Source of the DNA: a phage
Reading direction: 5' to 3' (one strand)
Assembly: GCA_024975835.1 (NCBI GenBank)
Contig: GCA_024975835.1_4840.2
Length of the DNA: 20,653 nucleotides
This document shows, piece by piece, positions 4,378 to 9,260 of the stretch. Made by a program: the position numbers and the translations under genes. The notes below the pieces were generated by a model, which was not told the origin of the DNA, ran no database searches, and was given only the letters and a program-made list of their open reading frames with translations. Within the stretch, counting starts at the first letter, position 1; every line of letters begins with the position of its first letter.

Positions 4378-4656
4378 ATGGCTGGTGTATGGTGTGATGT
4401 CTTGCTGGTTCGTTACAGCGTAAATGGGTGTGTCCAAGTGCGTTCCGCCTTCTATCCAGTACCGTTCTCTTCCGGTGGCCTGACGGTTCAGCGAGTTCTC
4501 AATATTGAGGCAGAACTGAACAAAAAGTCTTTTGGTGTACAAGTCCTGGGGTACGATCTTCTGAATGAAATGATGGTTGAAGAAGACAAAGTTGAGACTG
4601 TCATTGGTCGTCAGGAGATGGAATCGTTAATCTCCAAATCGGAGGTCAAATCATGA
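4378..4656 (+). CDS. hypothetical protein (92 aa)
   Basis: ORF starting 2 nt after the upstream stop (TAATATG). No motifs recognised. Confidence 0.5.
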   Translation: MAGVWCDVLLVRYSVNGCVQVRSAFYPVPFSSGGLTVQRVLNIEAELNKKSFGVQVLGYDLLNEMMVEEDKVETVIGRQEMESLISKSEVKS

Positions 4657-4901
4657 GTCCCAACATGGCAATAATCTGGGTTGGTGAATCGTCAATGCGT
4701 TGTCCTCACAAGACGATCACCTTCTTGGACGATGAGCGCCTGGCCGAACAACGGGTTGAAGTCCGCGAAATGCAGGTTTCTTCAAAGGCGGTGAACGTTC
4801 CTGTGACTAATATTCAGACTTTTAAGCCTTGCGTCAGAGTGATTTGTGAACGCTGTGGATGTTATGGCACGATGACGACTGAAGACGTGGCGAAAGGCTA
4901 A
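4653..4901 (+). CDS. hypothetical protein with Cys-rich C-terminus (82 aa)
   Basis: ATGA overlap with the upstream gene. C-terminal CxxxxICERCGC cluster could bind a metal. Function unknown. Confidence 0.5.
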   Translation: MSPNMAIIWVGESSMRCPHKTITFLDDERLAEQRVEVREMQVSSKAVNVPVTNIQTFKPCVRVICERCGCYGTMTTEDVAKG

Positions 4902-4994: not shown

Positions 4995-5273
4995 ATGAAT
5001 CGTACTGAATTTGTTGCCCACATTGCTTCGACCCAGAACATCACCAAAGGCGAAGCGGAGAAAGTAGTGGCATCCTTTATCGACGGTGTAAAAACTGCAG
5101 TTGCTGCAGGCGCATCTGTACAGCTGGTCGGCTTCGGTGCGTTCGAAGTGAAACACCAAGAAGCGCGTGAAGGTCGCAACCCTCTGAACGGCCAGACCAT
5201 TCAGATCGCGGCGAAAAACGTTGTGAAATTCAAAGTGGGCGAAGGTCTGAAGAACGCTGCCAACGGCAAGTAA
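4995..5273 (+). CDS. HU/IHF-family histone-like DNA-binding protein
   Basis: Protein is 92 aa, typical HU length. Contains the HU-family arm signature VQLVGFGAFEVKHQEAREGRNPLNGQTIQIAAKNVVKFKVG (compare bacterial HU GFGxF...R.GRNP...I.A...F..G). GGAG lies about 9 nt upstream. Confidence 0.85.
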   Translation: MNRTEFVAHIASTQNITKGEAEKVVASFIDGVKTAVAAGASVQLVGFGAFEVKHQEAREGRNPLNGQTIQIAAKNVVKFKVGEGLKNAANGK

Positions 5274-5322: not shown

Positions 5323-5355
5323 AAAGCCGGAGTACAATGCTCCGGCTTTTTCGTT
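5323..5355 (+). terminator. rho-independent terminator
   Basis: AAAGCCGGAG-(7-nt loop)-CTCCGGCTTT followed by TTTTTCGTTCTT, directly downstream of the HU-like gene. Confidence 0.7.
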
Positions 5356-5401
5356 CTTGGGGATCGGGTAAACTATAGGCGAATCCCATAGGAGGAAGAA
5401 A

Positions 5402-7120
5402 GTGACAGCATTCAACCAATATACTAAGGCGCTTGACGGCGTCGGACCAGTCAGCATAGACCGCATCAAGTCTCTTGCCACTGAGTTCTTCCCGTATGAC
5501 ACCGCCAACCCCGGCCAGATGGAATGCATCGTTGAAGCCATCGATGCCCTTGTGAATAAGAAATTCAAACACGTGATCATCGAGGCTCCGACTGGTGTAG
5601 GTAAATCCCTCATCGGCACTACCATCCATAACGTGCTTCGCCATTTGGTTCTTGAGCACAACCCGTATGGTCAGTTCCGCACGTCTATCACGACGCCGAC
5701 CAAAGGTTTACAGGATCAGTATGCAGCAGAGAAAGCCGTGGCGATAGACATCCTGAAGGGCAAGAAGAATTACCGTTGCCACATCAGTCCCGACCTATAC
5801 TACAACGCCATTCAGTGCCGTATGGCATGCCGTGATGGCCAGTGTAGTAAGAATCGTTGCCCATATGTTCAGGCGCGTCGACAGTGGACCGACGTCTCCT
5901 CCCTGCGCTGCACCAACGCCGCCATGATGGTGGAGATGTGCACGACGATCTGTATGAAGCCGGAAAACCGTGCCGATATGCTGATCCTTGACGAGTGTCA
6001 TAAAATGCCCTCTACGCTCCTAGAGCATACTATCATGGAATACAACATAAAGGCTGTGGAAGGGCTGCTTACGATCCCAGAGGGGGTGCCTATCGTGGAG
6101 ACCATCAAGGATATCATCATCCGCACAGAGAACTATGAATTGGGCAACCTGTATTCCCTGTCTGGTGAGATGCATGCGATATTTGATGAACTGCACGGCA
6201 AGGTTGAAGCCCTGTTGGAAACTCTTGAGGAACTGGTAGAGGACGAGCGCCTGACTGAAGCCCAGGTGATGAAGCTGTCTGATATTATTGATACTCTTCA
6301 CAACCTCAGCGACTACTGTGGTATCATGGGGCAGACCAACGCCAGCACTTTCATCGTACAGGAGAAGGACAAGGGTATGATTCAGTTCAAGCCTGTCATC
6401 GCCTCTGATGTATCCCAGTTCGGCCTGTTCCGCAAGGGTGACTACCACGTCCACATGTCGGCTACCATTTGTGGGATTGACTCGTACGCCCGGTCACTGG
6501 GTATCCGCGAGGGTGAGTACCACAAGATACAGATCGGCAACCCTATCCCGATTGAGAACCGGAAAGTCAACTACATGCCCATCATGAAGATGACAGCGAA
6601 CATGGGTGACTATGAGATGAAGAAGCTGGCCGAATACGTTGATGAAATCATCGCATTCCACCCTGGGCAGTCTGGTATCATTCACACAGTAAGTTATGAC
6701 CGCGCCCTGGCTATACAGAAGTTCAGTAAGTACCGGAATATGATTCACGTTCCTCGTACTCGTAAGGCTCTGATGGACATCATGGAACACGCGTTCAGGA
6801 CGAAGACGCCTTGTGTCATCGCCAGTCCGGCCATGGAAGAGGGGTATGACTTCAAAGGCGATTACAGTCGATTTCAGATCTTGATCAAGGTGCCATACGA
6901 TTACCTTGGTGATCCTCTGGTGGCCCACGTCAACAGTGTGGACCCATCGGCGTACTTCAGGATGGCGGTACTGCGTATCGTTCAGATGTGTGGGCGTTCG
7001 GTCAGGGGCGTGAATGACTGGGCTGCGACGTACATCCTTGATTCTTCTTTTGAATCACTGATGATGCGCAACCCAGAGTTCTTCCCCGCTTGGTTCACTG
7101 ATGCCGTGTTTGAGGTTTAG
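5402..7120 (+). CDS. SF2 DExH-box helicase with Cys-rich insert between motifs I and II (DinG/XPD-like architecture)
   Basis: GTG start with AGGAGG 6 nt upstream. Walker A EAPTGVGKS, motif II LILDECH, motif III SAT (HMSATICG), motif VI QMCGRSVRG. Five Cys within about 30 residues (RCH...QCRMACRDGQCSKNRCP) lie between motifs I and II, where XPD/DinG helicases carry their Fe-S domain. Confidence 0.8.
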   Translation: MTAFNQYTKALDGVGPVSIDRIKSLATEFFPYDTANPGQMECIVEAIDALVNKKFKHVIIEAPTGVGKSLIGTTIHNVLRHLVLEHNPYGQFRTSITTPTKGLQDQYAAEKAVAIDILKGKKNYRCHISPDLYYNAIQCRMACRDGQCSKNRCPYVQARRQWTDVSSLRCTNAAMMVEMCTTICMKPENRADMLILDECHKMPSTLLEHTIMEYNIKAVEGLLTIPEGVPIVETIKDIIIRTENYELGNLYSLSGEMHAIFDELHGKVEALLETLEELVEDERLTEAQVMKLSDIIDTLHNLSDYCGIMGQTNASTFIVQEKDKGMIQFKPVIASDVSQFGLFRKGDYHVHMSATICGIDSYARSLGIREGEYHKIQIGNPIPIENRKVNYMPIMKMTANMGDYEMKKLAEYVDEIIAFHPGQSGIIHTVSYDRALAIQKFSKYRNMIHVPRTRKALMDIMEHAFRTKTPCVIASPAMEEGYDFKGDYSRFQILIKVPYDYLGDPLVAHVNSVDPSAYFRMAVLRIVQMCGRSVRGVNDWAATYILDSSFESLMMRNPEFFPAWFTDAVFEV

Positions 7121-7884
7121 TAACCCGCAACGAAGGACAGATGGCACTTGACATTCGGTTCCAACGACGTCACAGAAACCGTCATATTGTCCGTATCTTG
7201 GCTGAAGTCAATGGTGGCGAGAGGTTTGGTCTGAATATGGTTGTAAACACTGTAGATCAGATCCTCGCCACGATACCCTACCTTCCCGTCGGTGTCTTGC
7301 CAATGACCCAGTGTCTCATCGTAGACATGTACTCTGAACTCGATCATATGGAAGAGTGCCTTGGGGATGTCCTTGAGCACGCTGGTGCCAACCACGGGAA
7401 TCTCTATGCTGGAATCATTGGAGTTCCCTTCATAGACCGAAGCCCATGCAAAGGTAGGATCACCCCCAGCAACAGGGGTTCGCTTCCAGTATTGGAATTC
7501 TGGGTTGCCTGAAGCGTTCTTCTGAAGTAGAATGACCTCACCACCTTTGAAGTTCGAAGTATCGATGTCGCCTCGCTGAAGTTCATCTGCTGGAGATCCA
7601 ATAAATTTCCAGCCTTCGCGATCCAATAAAGACTTATAATAGTCGGTGAACACGTTGCTGTCTTCTGCATCGTTGATGGCATCTTTGAGACCTTGGCCTG
7701 TCACCATCTCGTTGAGCTTCAACCACATGTTCTTGACAGCAGACGCTGCTGCGACTTGTCCAGCAGTCCCACCTGCAGCATAATCATAGATGATATCTTC
7801 TGACTTGATAGCATCATAGATAGAGAGGAGCAATTGCTCAATCTGCGGGGCGGTGAGACTGAAACGATATGCGCGGGGTGCCAT
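7117..7884 (-). CDS. hypothetical late protein (about 255 aa), only convincing minus-strand gene in the window
   Basis: Start assigned to ATG 7884 (MAPRAYRF...) within track ORF 7117..8043, because GAGGAA lies about 8 nt upstream and a TATAAATA box lies about 36 nt upstream on the minus strand. 3' end converges on, and overlaps, the helicase stop. No catalytic motif recognised. Confidence 0.6.
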   Translation of the reverse strand: MAPRAYRFSLTAPQIEQLLLSIYDAIKSEDIIYDYAAGGTAGQVAAASAVKNMWLKLNEMVTGQGLKDAINDAEDSNVFTDYYKSLLDREGWKFIGSPADELQRGDIDTSNFKGGEVILLQKNASGNPEFQYWKRTPVAGGDPTFAWASVYEGNSNDSSIEIPVVGTSVLKDIPKALFHMIEFRVHVYDETLGHWQDTDGKVGYRGEDLIYSVYNHIQTKPLATIDFSQDTDNMTVSVTSLEPNVKCHLSFVAGY

Positions 7885-7929: not shown

Positions 7930-8457
7930 ATGATAGAAATTTATTCTGACGGGGGTTCTAACCCGAAGACCAACCAGGCCGCAGGTTGGGCATTTGTCAT
8001 CAGGCCAATAACGGGTATGCAATGGAAGGTGTTCTTCGGCCATCTACCTCCCCCGTCCACTAACAATATCGCCGAGTTGTTGGGCGTGACCAACGCATTG
8101 AAGCTGCTGTGGGCATTCTCAGGAAAGGGTGAGCGCAGAATACCAAAGGCAACAATTTGGTCTGACAGCCAATATGCCATCAAGAGTGTCACCGAATGGC
8201 GAACGAAGTGGGAGTATCAGGGTTTCCCAGACAAGAACGTTGAACTCATCAAAGATCTGTTCAGAATCTATGATCTCGTTTGTTCAATTTGTGATGTTGA
8301 ACTAAAATGGGTTAAGGGTCATGCGGGGCACGAAGGCAACGAACTTGCCGATGACTGGGCCACAGCAGCCAAAAACGACAGCAACTTCCTGATTGAGAAT
8401 GACAAGATCTCAGTGAAGAAGGTTGTTGGATCTTTTGATGAATTTATCGGTATCTGA
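7930..8457 (+). CDS. rnhA: ribonuclease H, type 1 (RnhA-like)
   Basis: Start ATG 7930 (MIEIYSDGG...) within track ORF 7834..8457. Catalytic signatures IYSDGG, NNIAEL, SDSQY and WVKGHAGHEGNELADDWA correspond to the D-E-D-H-D active-site pattern of E. coli RNase HI. Confidence 0.85.
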   Translation: MIEIYSDGGSNPKTNQAAGWAFVIRPITGMQWKVFFGHLPPPSTNNIAELLGVTNALKLLWAFSGKGERRIPKATIWSDSQYAIKSVTEWRTKWEYQGFPDKNVELIKDLFRIYDLVCSICDVELKWVKGHAGHEGNELADDWATAAKNDSNFLIENDKISVKKVVGSFDEFIGI

Positions 8458-8468
8458 GGGCTTTCATA

Positions 8469-9260
8469 ATGGGAATGAACTTCGTGGACAGAGGGGAGAA
8501 TGTCGTCAAATATTTCACGGACGAAGACAACGAGCGTGTCATCAGTATCCTTCGTGATTGGATCCCTGCTCGTAAGAAGGCTCTGGCTGAAGGCACCAGG
8601 CTTCCAAAGATCCCCAACTATGTTGCTCTACAGGTCCAGCGCATCATCACCAAGATGAGTACCCGCTACAACTATCGCGACTATCCCTTCCGTGAAGACA
8701 TGGTCTCTGAAGCAATAGTCAACATCCTGCGCTACCTCCACACCTTTGACGTCGAACACATTGGAAAGAAAGGGAAGATCAACTTCTTCTCTTGGGTGAC
8801 CATGTGTGCTGATCGCTCATTTGCTCGTAAACTGAACATCGAAGAAGAGCACACGTACATTAAATTGCGCTCATTTGAAGAGGCGGGTGGGTTCGCAGGC
8901 CTGGCAGACGATCCCGACTTCCAACAAGAGATCTTTGTTGATGCTACAGGAATTGGCATGGACTTCCGTGAGCGTATCGGTAACTTTGAGAACAAAAAGG
9001 ACGCTCAAAGACAGAAGGAGCGAGAGAAGGTGGAGGCAGCTCGTCTCGCAGAATCGAATAAAAAGATTGCGAAAGGCATACTTCAATACATGGCGCAGGC
9101 TAAGAATACGGTAACAGCGCAGGCCGAAGACAATTCAGATCAGGACTTTGGCAAAACCCAATTCAATCTGGAAGATGATATCTGTGCGATGGAACCAGAT
9201 TGGGAAGCCCTCAAACAAAGATTAGAAGAACGGGAGAAAAAGAATAATGGCGATTGCTAA
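8469..9260 (+). CDS. gp55-like late-transcription sigma factor with extended charged C-terminal tail
   Basis: Pattern RYNYRDY...VNILRYLHTFD...NFFSWVTMCADRSFARKL parallels T4 gp55 as I recall it (RFNFSGY...LHNFD...YITQACFNAFVQRI). Protein is about 80 aa longer than T4 gp55, with a Lys/Glu-rich C-terminal region. Confidence 0.75.
   Translation: MGMNFVDRGENVVKYFTDEDNERVISILRDWIPARKKALAEGTRLPKIPNYVALQVQRIITKMSTRYNYRDYPFREDMVSEAIVNILRYLHTFDVEHIGKKGKINFFSWVTMCADRSFARKLNIEEEHTYIKLRSFEEAGGFAGLADDPDFQQEIFVDATGIGMDFRERIGNFENKKDAQRQKEREKVEAARLAESNKKIAKGILQYMAQAKNTVTAQAEDNSDQDFGKTQFNLEDDICAMEPDWEALKQRLEEREKKNNGDC

What the first reader, a model, noticed from the sequence alone, without database searches (positions are those of the whole stretch)
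5402..7120. SF2 helicase with a Cys-rich insert where XPD/DinG helicases carry an Fe-S cluster
All canonical SF2 motifs are present (GVGKS, DECH, SAT, QxxGRxxR). Five cysteines are packed between motif I and motif II, the position of the Fe-S domain in XPD/DinG-type 5'-3' helicases. T4-type replisomes normally use DnaB-like gp41, Dda and UvsW. An Fe-S or zinc-containing XPD-like helicase next to an HU-like protein and RNase HI suggests a non-canonical repair or replication-restart module.
Basis: partly seen in the sequence, partly recalled or inferred. Interest (0 to 1): 0.55.

Follow-up and report, generated by a model that had tools for sequence, protein, structure and literature searches.

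The report
Phage XPD/DinG-type iron-sulfur helicase gene
The gene at 5402-7120 is a conserved helicase of Ackermannviridae phages that belongs to the XPD/DinG family and keeps the four cysteines that hold an iron-sulfur cluster in that family; public phage genomes already annotate it as a DNA helicase, so it is a sound but fairly ordinary finding.

Summary
ORF 5402-7120 (+, 572 aa, GTG start behind an AGGAGG ribosome-binding site) has all the SF2 motifs. It has eight cysteines between motifs I and II, five of them within 28 residues.

The XPD/DinG assignment holds:
- Pfam Helicase_C_2 is matched above its cutoff.
- A family profile hits E. coli DinG (4e-20) and archaeal XPD (5e-15).

C126, C139, C148 and C153 are invariant in 118 of 118 full-length homologues. 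C126, C148 and C153 align with DinG cluster ligands C120, C199 and C205. Metal content and polarity could not be tested.

The window is an Ackermannviridae phage fragment, 98% identical to Salmonella phage Marshall. The gene is already annotated there as DNA helicase, DinG or Rad3-related.

The closest complete genome also encodes gp41-like and UvsW helicases but has no Dda homologue. An accessory 5'-3' helicase role is therefore plausible but only inferred.

The proposed HU/helicase/RNase HI module is not supported. A terminator-like hairpin and an opposite-strand virion gene separate the three genes, and the neighbours change in distant relatives.

Verdict: a new member of a known kind, of modest interest.

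The parts
5402..7120 (+). Complete gene for a 572-aa XPD/DinG-family SF2 DNA helicase (GTG start, TAG stop)
   Evidence: ORF list; phrog_2488 'DNA helicase' at E 3.9e-259; Pfam Helicase_C_2 at 46.6 bits against a cutoff of 25.3; annotated as DNA helicase in phage Marshall and in vB_CECAV_050.
5390..5395 (+). Shine-Dalgarno sequence AGGAGG, six bases before the GTG start
   Evidence: Sequence read directly. Phage Marshall annotates a ribosome-binding site at the equivalent place.
5323..5349 (.). 10-bp GC-rich hairpin (AAAGCCGGAG-TACAATG-CTCCGGCTTT) with T-rich flanks, between the HU-like gene and the helicase; probably a two-way terminator
   Evidence: Terminator scan, which flagged it on the minus strand; sequence; annotated as a terminator in Marshall at the equivalent position.
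5489..5518 (+). Q-motif region (aa 30-39, FPYDTANPGQ); F30, G38 and Q39 are invariant
5585..5608 (+). Motif I / Walker A (aa 62-69, APTGVGKS)
   Evidence: K68 is present in all 136 diverse representatives.
5693..5722 (+). Motif Ia (aa 98-107, TPTKGLQDQY)
   Evidence: L103, Q104, Q106 and Y107 are invariant. The segment aligns with DinG 'TANVALQDQ'.
5756..5977 (+). Predicted Fe-S domain inserted in helicase domain 1 (aa about 119-192)
   Evidence: It lies between motifs Ia and II. The model is helical here with pLDDT 81-92. The segment aligns with the DinG Fe-S domain but lacks DinG's insertion of about 70 aa.
5777..5860 (+). Cysteine cluster C126-x12-C139-x8-C148-x4-C153 (with a variable C143); the predicted ligands of a 4Fe-4S cluster
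   Evidence: The four cysteines are invariant in 54 of 54 and 118 of 118 homologues. At least four Cys occur in this segment in 128 of 136 diverse representatives. C126, C148 and C153 align with DinG C120, C199 and C205. C153 in 'CPY' aligns with FANCJ C350.
5990..6001 (+). Motif II / Walker B, DECH (aa 197-200)
6014..6436 (+). Predicted Arch domain inserted between motifs II and III (aa about 205-345; long helical hairpin plus beta hairpin)
6437..7117 (+). Helicase domain 2, with motif III (SAT, 6458-6466), motif V (6824-6862) and motif VI (QMCGRSVRG, 6983-7009)
   Evidence: Pfam Helicase_C_2 matches aa 465-565; invariant residues; coordinates.
4995..5273 (+). Upstream neighbour: HU-like DNA-binding protein (92 aa); not shown to work with the helicase
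   Evidence: Pfam Bac_DNA_binding at 6.1e-30; phrog_379.
7117..7884 (-). Convergent downstream neighbour: virion structural protein (255 aa), whose end overlaps the helicase stop codon by 4 nt
   Evidence: phrog_3833; annotated as a virion structural protein in vB_CECAV_050; translation.
7930..8457 (+). RNase HI (175 aa), the first gene of the RNase H - gp55 - gp47 - gp46 block
   Evidence: Pfam RNase_H at 3.8e-25; phrog_531.

Best explanation
The gene encodes a catalytically intact, compact (572 aa) XPD/DinG-family superfamily-2 DNA helicase of an Ackermannviridae phage.

The domain plan is two RecA-like motor domains plus two insertions in the first one: an Fe-S domain between motifs Ia and II, and an Arch domain between motifs II and III. 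C126, C139, C148 and C153 most likely hold a [4Fe-4S] cluster. That cluster would fold the small domain that, together with the Arch domain, forms the ssDNA channel and the strand-separating wedge.

By analogy with XPD and DinG, the enzyme should load on ssDNA, move 5' to 3' using ATP, and unwind forks, D-loops or R-loops.

It is not the replicative helicase, because the phage lineage also has a gp41-like DnaB helicase with its loader, and UvsW. Its most likely job is that of an accessory helicase in T4-style replication, recombination and repair. It would fill the 5'-3' accessory slot that Dda fills in T4, since no Dda homologue was found in the closest complete genome.

Shown here: family, fold, domain order and cysteine conservation. 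Inferred only: the bound metal, the polarity, the substrates and the Dda-like role.
For: - Family, by sequence: Pfam Helicase_C_2 at 5e-12 and above its cutoff, matched by all 54 aligned relatives, 8 of which also match DEAD_2. The best NCBIfam hits are DinG, YoaA and rad3. The family profile against PDB gives DinG 4.4e-20, FmaDinG 5e-18, TaXPD 5.5e-15, then Rad3, XPD, FANCJ and CHL1.
- Cysteines: four are invariant in 54 of 54 and 118 of 118 homologues, and they are kept in Vibrio, Aeromonas, Acinetobacter, Rhizobium and halovirus relatives. 128 of 136 representatives at 50% identity have at least four Cys in the segment.
- Ligand equivalence: C126, C148 and C153 align with DinG C120, C199 and C205 (the residue numbers of the DinG ligands are from my own knowledge of Ren et al. 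2009, which could not be opened). C153 aligns with FANCJ C350 in the 'CPY' signature (that A349 sits next to the fourth conserved cysteine is stated in PMC3378879).
- DNA contact: the invariant R159 aligns with DinG R211, an ssDNA-contacting arginine at the HD1/FeS interface (PMC6300356).
- Activity: all ATPase residues are intact (K68, D197, E198, H200, R532, R535).
- Other helicases in the closest genome: gp41-like (Pfam DnaB_C), its loader and UvsW (Pfam UvsW_N) are present. T4 Dda finds nothing by tblastn (best E 0.65).
- Context: the gene always lies among replication, recombination or repair genes in relatives.
Against: - No metal, polarity or substrate was measured. The tools did not return model coordinates, so I could not check that the four thiols converge.
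- The second ligand is ambiguous in the pairwise alignment with DinG. DinG C194 aligns with the variable C143, while the invariant C139 falls opposite a non-ligand cysteine.
- Some XPD-family members have a degenerate Fe-S domain with no cluster (CasDinG, S. aureus DinG; PMC13650095), so the fold alone does not prove a cluster.
- The query itself does not reach Pfam DEAD_2, and it scores far below the equivalog cutoffs for DinG, YoaA and rad3.
- The Dda-replacement idea rests on the absence of Dda in a single complete genome and on analogy.
Confidence: 0.8

Rival explanations
1. The four conserved cysteines hold a structural zinc ion, or no metal at all, in place of a 4Fe-4S cluster. The protein would then be an XPD-fold helicase with a zinc-stabilised or pseudo-Fe-S wedge domain.
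For: Four-cysteine sites can bind zinc. The span from C126 to C153 is short (28 residues, median 28 across the family), far shorter than the 86 residues between DinG C120 and C205. Cluster-free pseudo-FeS variants exist within the XPD family (PMC13650095).
Against: The known pseudo-FeS variants have lost their cysteines, whereas here the cysteines are invariant. The first, third and fourth cysteines and their flanking signatures (a basic G-K/R-x-N-Y-x-C stretch, then C-P-Y/F followed by Arg) align with known Fe-S ligands of DinG and FANCJ. To my knowledge, every characterised family member with four cysteines at this position binds 4Fe-4S (review PMC3378879).
Confidence: 0.1
2. It is a dedicated DNA-damage helicase with an XPD-like excision-repair or YoaA-like gap-repair role, and not a general replication accessory helicase.
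For: XPD, DinG and YoaA are all repair-linked (PMC6300356; bioRxiv 10.1101/2024.06.21.600097). In the rhizobiophages phiM9 and RL2RES the homologue lies one to three genes from a T4 endonuclease V (pyrimidine-dimer glycosylase)-like gene and a T4-type RNase H. Halovirus HF2 has an ERCC4-type nuclease about 4 kb away.
Against: The endonuclease V neighbour is confined to one clade. In the window and in the Vibrio phage the neighbours are RNase HI, gp55 and gp46/47. In Rhizobium phage TM3_3_6 they are ligase, primase, an exonuclease and DNA polymerase A. No NER partner such as XPB or UvrA/B/C was seen in the closest genome's annotation.
Confidence: 0.15
3. This is the first reader's reading: HU-like protein, helicase and RNase HI form one co-regulated, non-canonical repair or replication-restart module.
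For: The three genes are adjacent in the window. The helicase-to-RNase H proximity is kept in a Vibrio phage at 45% identity. DinG is linked to R-loop removal (PMC6300356), and RNase HI degrades the RNA strand of R-loops.
Against: A terminator-like hairpin lies between the HU gene and the helicase. An opposite-strand virion gene lies between the helicase and RNase HI. HU is absent next to the helicase in the Vibrio, Aeromonas, Acinetobacter, Rhizobium and HF2 relatives. RNase HI belongs to the conserved T4-like RNase H - gp55 - gp47 - gp46 block.
Confidence: 0.08
4. The helicase is tuned to the phage's hypermodified thymidine DNA. For example, it might expose DNA for the post-replicative modification enzymes, or act against host defences.
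For: The closest genome encodes a 5-hmdU DNA kinase and an amino-acid:DNA transferase. The helicase family also occurs in Delftia phage PhiW-14 (P0073), which from my own knowledge is another phage with hypermodified thymine.
Against: The family also occurs in haloviruses, rhizobiophages and thousands of metagenomic clusters with no demonstrated link to modification. The modification genes are not near the helicase. Co-occurrence was not tested.
Confidence: 0.04

Closest known systems
E. coli DinG (PDB 6FWR/6FWS), a bacterial XPD-family 4Fe-4S 5'-3' helicase
   Same: Best sequence-profile hit (4.4e-20) and best Foldseek hit (2.8e-26, TMq 0.66). It has the same domain order: motor domain 1 with Fe-S and Arch insertions, then motor domain 2. 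Phage C126, C148 and C153 align with DinG C120, C199 and C205, and R159 aligns with R211.
   Different: Only 16-18% identical. 572 aa against 716 aa. It lacks DinG's insertion of about 70 aa between the first and second cysteine. It scores 66 bits against the DinG equivalog cutoff of 598, so it is not a DinG orthologue. It is encoded by a phage, not by an SOS-regulated host gene.
Archaeal XPD (S. acidocaldarius 3CRV, S. tokodaii 2VL7, T. acidophilum 4A15/9P55)
   Different: 14-18% identity. The rad3 subfamily model scores 23.5 bits against a cutoff of 247. The cysteine spacing differs (C-x12-C-x8-C-x4-C here). No TFIIH or NER context.
Finegoldia magna EndoDinG (PDB 9KQH)
   Different: The phage protein has no N-terminal PD-(D/E)XK nuclease domain. 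15% identity.
CasDinG / Csf4 (type IV CRISPR) and S. aureus DinG
   Same: Same XPD-family fold (Foldseek about 1e-20).
   Different: Those proteins have a vestigial Fe-S domain without the cysteine ligands (PMC10450177 abstract; PMC13650095), whereas the phage protein keeps all four. The Csf4 model scores only E 0.053.
T4 Dda (SF1B 5'-3' accessory helicase)
   Same: Possible functional analogue: a non-replicative 5'-3' helicase in a T4-type replication and recombination system. Dda is absent from the closest complete genome, which carries this gene instead.
   Different: No homology. Dda belongs to a different superfamily (SF1B) and has no Fe-S domain.
PHROG 2488 and phage genes annotated 'DNA helicase', 'ATP-dependent helicase', 'DinG' or 'Rad3-related'
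   Same: The window protein is a full-length member (E 3.9e-259). It is 98-99% identical to the genes in phages Marshall, Maynard, ZQ1 and vB_CECAV_050.
   Different: None of substance; this is the same gene. The Fe-S site is not mentioned in those annotations or in any paper I found.

Membership tests
XPD/DinG (Rad3) family of SF2 helicases | SF2 core motifs Q, I, Ia, II (DExH), III, V and VI are intact | tested here: met
   FPYDTANPGQ, APTGVGKS, TPTKGLQDQY, DECH, SAT, SPAMEEGYDFKGD and QMCGRSVRG. The key residues are invariant in 54 homologues and in 134-136 of 136 diverse representatives.
XPD/DinG (Rad3) family of SF2 helicases | C-terminal domain matches Pfam Helicase_C_2 (PF13307) above the gathering score | tested here: met
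   46.6 bits against a cutoff of 25.3, E 5e-12. All 54 aligned relatives match.
XPD/DinG (Rad3) family of SF2 helicases | N-terminal domain matches Pfam DEAD_2 (PF06733) | tested here: inconclusive
   The query itself does not match. 8 of 54 relatives do (best E 2e-5).
XPD/DinG (Rad3) family of SF2 helicases | Domain with four conserved cysteines inserted between motifs Ia and II | tested here: met
   C126, C139, C148 and C153 are invariant in 118 of 118 homologues. Three of them align with DinG ligands. 128 of 136 diverse representatives have at least four Cys in the segment.
XPD/DinG (Rad3) family of SF2 helicases | Arch domain inserted between motifs II and III | tested here: met
XPD/DinG (Rad3) family of SF2 helicases | Overall fold is closest to solved XPD/DinG structures | tested here: met
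XPD/DinG (Rad3) family of SF2 helicases | Bound [4Fe-4S] cluster | not testable with these tools
   This needs purified protein (UV-visible spectrum, EPR, iron and sulfide analysis).
XPD/DinG (Rad3) family of SF2 helicases | ATP-dependent 5'-3' translocation and unwinding | not testable with these tools
   Inferred from family membership only.
E. coli DinG orthologues (NCBIfam NF008729 equivalog) | Score above the equivalog cutoff | tested here: not met
   66.1 bits against a cutoff of 598.
YoaA orthologues (NCBIfam NF053712 equivalog) | Score above the equivalog cutoff | tested here: not met
   55.8 bits against a cutoff of 680.
Rad3/XPD subfamily (TIGR00604) | Score above the subfamily cutoff | tested here: not met
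   23.5 bits against a cutoff of 246.95.
CasDinG/Csf4 and other pseudo-FeS DinG variants | Degenerate Fe-S domain that lacks the cysteine ligands | tested here: not met
   All four cysteines are present and invariant. The Csf4 model scores E 0.053, 11.7 bits against a cutoff of 400.
PHROG 2488 (phage DNA helicase) | Full-length match to the profile | tested here: met
   E 3.9e-259; residues 19-572 match profile positions 3-579 of 579.
T4 Dda-like SF1B helicases | Sequence homology to T4 Dda | tested here: not met
   T4 Dda run by tblastn against the whole closest genome gives nothing better than E 0.65, and no hit at the helicase locus.

The most novel reading that the evidence does not exclude
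A whole branch of T4-related phages (Ackermannviridae and relatives) has replaced the SF1B accessory helicase Dda with a compact [4Fe-4S] XPD-type helicase. If so, phage replication, recombination and repair would depend on the host's Fe-S assembly machinery and would be sensitive to redox or nitrosative stress. With thousands of viral relatives, this would be the first characterised virus-encoded Fe-S helicase and a very small model for XPD mechanics.
Probability: 0.3. Interest if true: 0.5.

Novelty: new member of a known kind. Interest (0 to 1): 0.3.

Why it matters
If the cluster is real, a core replication or repair enzyme of a large, therapeutically used phage family (Kuttervirus, Agtrevirus, Limestonevirus) needs a host-made Fe-S cofactor. 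Phage DNA metabolism would then be linked to host iron, ISC/SUF function and oxidative stress. At 572 aa and with only 28 residues spanning its four cysteines, the protein could also be a convenient small XPD-family model for structural and single-molecule work. It might explain how Dda-less T4-like phages clear obstacles at forks. None of this changes how the gene should be classified: it is a phage XPD/DinG-like helicase and is already annotated as a helicase.

Tried and rejected
2. An orthologue of DinG, YoaA or Rad3. Rejected, because the scores fall far below the curated cutoffs.
3. A pseudo-FeS variant of the CasDinG or S. aureus DinG type. Rejected, because the cysteines are invariant.
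4. The cysteine cluster as chance. The single-sequence statistics are only moderate (p about 0.025 for 5 in 28 aa), so I relied on conservation instead.
5. The replicative helicase of the phage. Rejected, because a gp41-like DnaB_C helicase and its loader are present in the closest genome.
6. Literature. I found no paper on this phage helicase family or on a phage Fe-S helicase. Ren et al. 2009 (PMC2643519) was not held, so the numbering of the DinG ligands rests on my own knowledge plus the alignment.
7. Thiol geometry. I could not measure Cys-Cys distances because the model coordinates are not exposed.
8. Promoters. The sigma-70 promoter scan was no better than shuffled sequence (5 found against 3.9 expected) and says nothing about how the gene is transcribed.
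Full report
**What is there.**
The window holds an ORF at 5402..7120 on the + strand, 572 aa long. It starts with GTG. AGGAGG lies six bases upstream, at 5390-5395. The first internal Met is M40, and starting there would delete the invariant F30/G38/Q39, so the GTG start stands.

The cysteine count was slightly low. Eight cysteines lie between motifs I and II (126, 139, 143, 148, 153, 170, 180, 184), and C199 lies inside DECH. Five of them fall within 28 residues. Shuffling the protein gives p of about 0.025 for 5 Cys in some 28-aa window, and about 4e-4 for 9 Cys in some 74-aa window. On one sequence alone the clustering is therefore only moderately unusual.

**Origin of the window.**
The helicase gene is 98.3-98.5% identical in DNA to Salmonella phages Marshall, Maynard and vB_CECAV_050 and to several Escherichia phages. 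All of these belong to the Ackermannviridae (Kuttervirus or Agtrevirus). The whole window is collinear with vB_CECAV_050 at 94-97% identity.

An identical protein is filed as a hypothetical protein of 'Escherichia coli' on a 20.7-kb contig. The window is therefore probably a phage contig inside a bacterial assembly.

In the phage records the gene is already called DNA helicase, ATP-dependent helicase, or once 'ATP-dependent DNA helicase DinG'. It is a full-length member of phrog_2488, 'DNA helicase' (E 3.9e-259).

**Family and fold.**
- Pfam gives Helicase_C_2, the C-terminal domain of the DinG/XPD group, at 46.6 bits against a cutoff of 25.3. All 54 aligned relatives match it, and 8 also match DEAD_2.
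- NCBIfam's best hits are DinG, YoaA, a DinG-related family and rad3. All score far below their curated cutoffs, so the protein is a relative and not an orthologue.
- A profile built from 54 homologues (A1) finds E. coli DinG at 4.4e-20, Finegoldia DinG at 5e-18 and Thermoplasma XPD at 5.5e-15. Rad3, human XPD, FANCJ and CHL1 follow.
- The AlphaFold2 model is confident, with mean pLDDT 89.8 and pTM 0.88.
- Foldseek against the PDB lists only XPD/DinG-family structures down to about rank 43. The best is EcDinG with ssDNA at E 2.8e-26 and TMq 0.66.

**The cysteine site.**
In A1 (54 sequences, down to 36% identity) the invariant cysteines are C126, C139, C148, C153 and C357, and C199 is nearly invariant. 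In all 118 full-length hits C126, C139, C148 and C153 are 118 of 118, while C143, C170, C180 and C184 vary.

Distant relatives all keep at least four cysteines in this segment, with small shifts in register. They include a Vibrio phage, two further Ackermannviridae that infect Aeromonas and Acinetobacter, three rhizobiophages from two families, and halovirus HF2.

An exhaustive profile search found 4,328 cluster representatives at E of 1e-30 or better. Of 136 diverse full-length representatives, C126 is kept in 136 and C153 in 134, and 128 have at least four Cys between those two columns. The span is 22-45 residues, with a median of 28.

When E. coli DinG is added to the alignment:
- C126 falls on DinG C120, C148 on C199 and C153 on C205.
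- R159 falls on R211, which contacts ssDNA at the HD1/FeS interface (PMC6300356).
- DinG C194 falls on the variable C143. The invariant C139 falls opposite a non-ligand cysteine, because DinG has about 70 extra residues between its first two ligands. From conservation, C139 is the likelier second ligand.
- C153 in 'CPY' also aligns with the 'ACPYY' of FANCJ, whose A349 sits next to the fourth conserved Fe-S cysteine (PMC3378879).

The site lies between motif Ia and motif II. In the model it is a small helical domain of pLDDT 81-92: C139 lies in a helix at 137-144, and C153 sits immediately before a helix at 154-165.

This is the position and signature of the XPD-family Fe-S domain. It differs from the cluster-free pseudo-FeS domains of CasDinG and S. 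aureus DinG, which have lost the cysteines (PMC13650095). I could not test metal content or thiol geometry.

**Mechanism (inferred).**
All ATPase and DNA-binding motif residues are intact, so the enzyme should be active. By analogy with XPD and DinG, ssDNA should run across motor domains 2 and 1 and through the channel closed by the Arch and Fe-S domains. The enzyme should move 5' to 3', with the Fe-S domain acting as the wedge (PMC6300356; PMC3378879).

**Role in the phage.**
The closest complete genome, vB_CECAV_050, encodes a gp41-like helicase (Pfam DnaB_C), a gp59-like loader and UvsW (Pfam UvsW_N). It also encodes UvsX, UvsY, gp32, gp43, the clamp and clamp loader, primase, and gp46/47. 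The XPD-like enzyme is therefore an additional helicase.

T4 Dda finds no homologue anywhere in that genome (best tblastn E 0.65), although Dda relatives occur in 2,344 other phage records. It is a reasonable but untested inference that this enzyme fills the 5'-3' accessory helicase niche. That role could include clearing proteins or R-loops ahead of forks and processing D-loops in recombination-dependent replication. DinG is linked to such tasks (PMC6300356).

**The proposed HU / helicase / RNase HI module.**
The neighbours are real. HU is at 4995-5273 (Pfam Bac_DNA_binding, 6e-30) and RNase HI is at 7930-8457 (Pfam RNase_H, 4e-25). Three observations argue against a dedicated module:
- A 10-bp GC-rich hairpin with T-rich flanks at 5323-5349, annotated as a terminator in Marshall, lies between HU and the helicase.
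- A convergent virion structural gene (7117-7884, minus strand) overlaps the helicase stop codon and separates it from RNase HI.
- The context changes with phylogenetic distance:
  - A Vibrio phage at 45% identity keeps helicase ... RNase H - gp55 - gp47 - gp46 but has no HU.
  - Aeromonas and Acinetobacter Ackermannviridae have other neighbours.
  - Rhizobium phage TM3_3_6 places the gene between dCMP deaminase and a PolA-type polymerase, near ligase and primase.
  - phiM9 and RL2RES place it near an endonuclease V-like gene and a T4-type RNase H.
  - HF2 has it among hypothetical genes.

The constant feature is 'among DNA-metabolism genes', not a fixed trio.

**Novelty and score.**
The gene, its helicase nature and its DinG/Rad3 relationship are already in public annotation. 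Here I add:
- the confident fold assignment;
- the family-wide four-cysteine signature with its ligand equivalences;
- the compact size of the Fe-S domain;
- the absence of Dda in the closest genome.

I found no paper that characterises this phage family or any phage Fe-S helicase. I rate it a new member of a known kind and score its interest at 0.3. The most novel reading still open is a lineage-wide replacement of Dda by an Fe-S helicase, tying phage replication to host Fe-S biogenesis. I give that a probability of about 0.3.

Noticed in passing
whole window (1-20653): An identical helicase protein (P0001) is filed as 'hypothetical protein N1226_003836 [Escherichia coli]' on a 20,725-bp contig, yet the window is 94-97% identical and collinear with an Agtrevirus phage genome. 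The window is probably a phage contig inside an E. coli assembly.
   Followed up: partly
window 4587-4899: This stretch has no counterpart in the closest genome, vB_CECAV_050 (a gap in the blastn alignment). It holds an 82-aa ORF (4653-4901) with five cysteines that matches phrog_31251 but no Pfam family. It looks like a small variable insertion just upstream of the HU-like gene.
   Followed up: partly
window 8457-8469; L001 17068-17802: Phage Marshall carries a homing endonuclease gene between RNase H and the late sigma factor gp55. The window has only 11 bases there, so this is a presence/absence polymorphism of a mobile endonuclease.
   Followed up: no
window 7117-7120: The helicase gene and the minus-strand virion structural gene (7117-7884) converge and overlap by 4 nt at their stop codons.
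   Followed up: yes
window 15324-18266: A 980-aa ORF with no Pfam match (phrog_3867). Its C-terminal residues 905-962 resemble an internal head protein family, phrog_7673.
   Followed up: no
window 8469-9260: The gp55-like late sigma factor is 263 aa, and only residues 13-208 match the 181-position profile. The remainder is a charged, acidic C-terminal tail, and the ORF overlaps the start of the gp47-like gene at 9247.
   Followed up: no
L011 7135-7518 and L012 5922-6320: In the rhizobiophages phiM9 and RL2RES the helicase homologue lies one to three genes upstream of a T4 endonuclease V (pyrimidine-dimer glycosylase)-like gene and a T4-type RNase H. This hints at a repair link in that clade.
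   Followed up: partly
L003 34645-35868 and L004 46800-48035 (closest genome): The closest complete genome encodes a 5-hmdU DNA kinase (PF18723, 8e-82) and an amino-acid:DNA transferase (PF18724, 2.7e-59), the enzymes of thymidine hypermodification. The helicase family also occurs in Delftia phage PhiW-14. Co-occurrence was not tested.
   Followed up: no
hits H29 and H43: In Enterobacter phage EspM4VN and Salmonella phage 38 the helicase match is split into two pieces, or annotated as two 'DNA helicase' CDSs. This suggests a frameshift or a sequencing error in those records.
   Followed up: no
L010 4832-4899: Halovirus HF2 has an annotated type II hammerhead ribozyme immediately upstream of its helicase homologue.
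   Followed up: no
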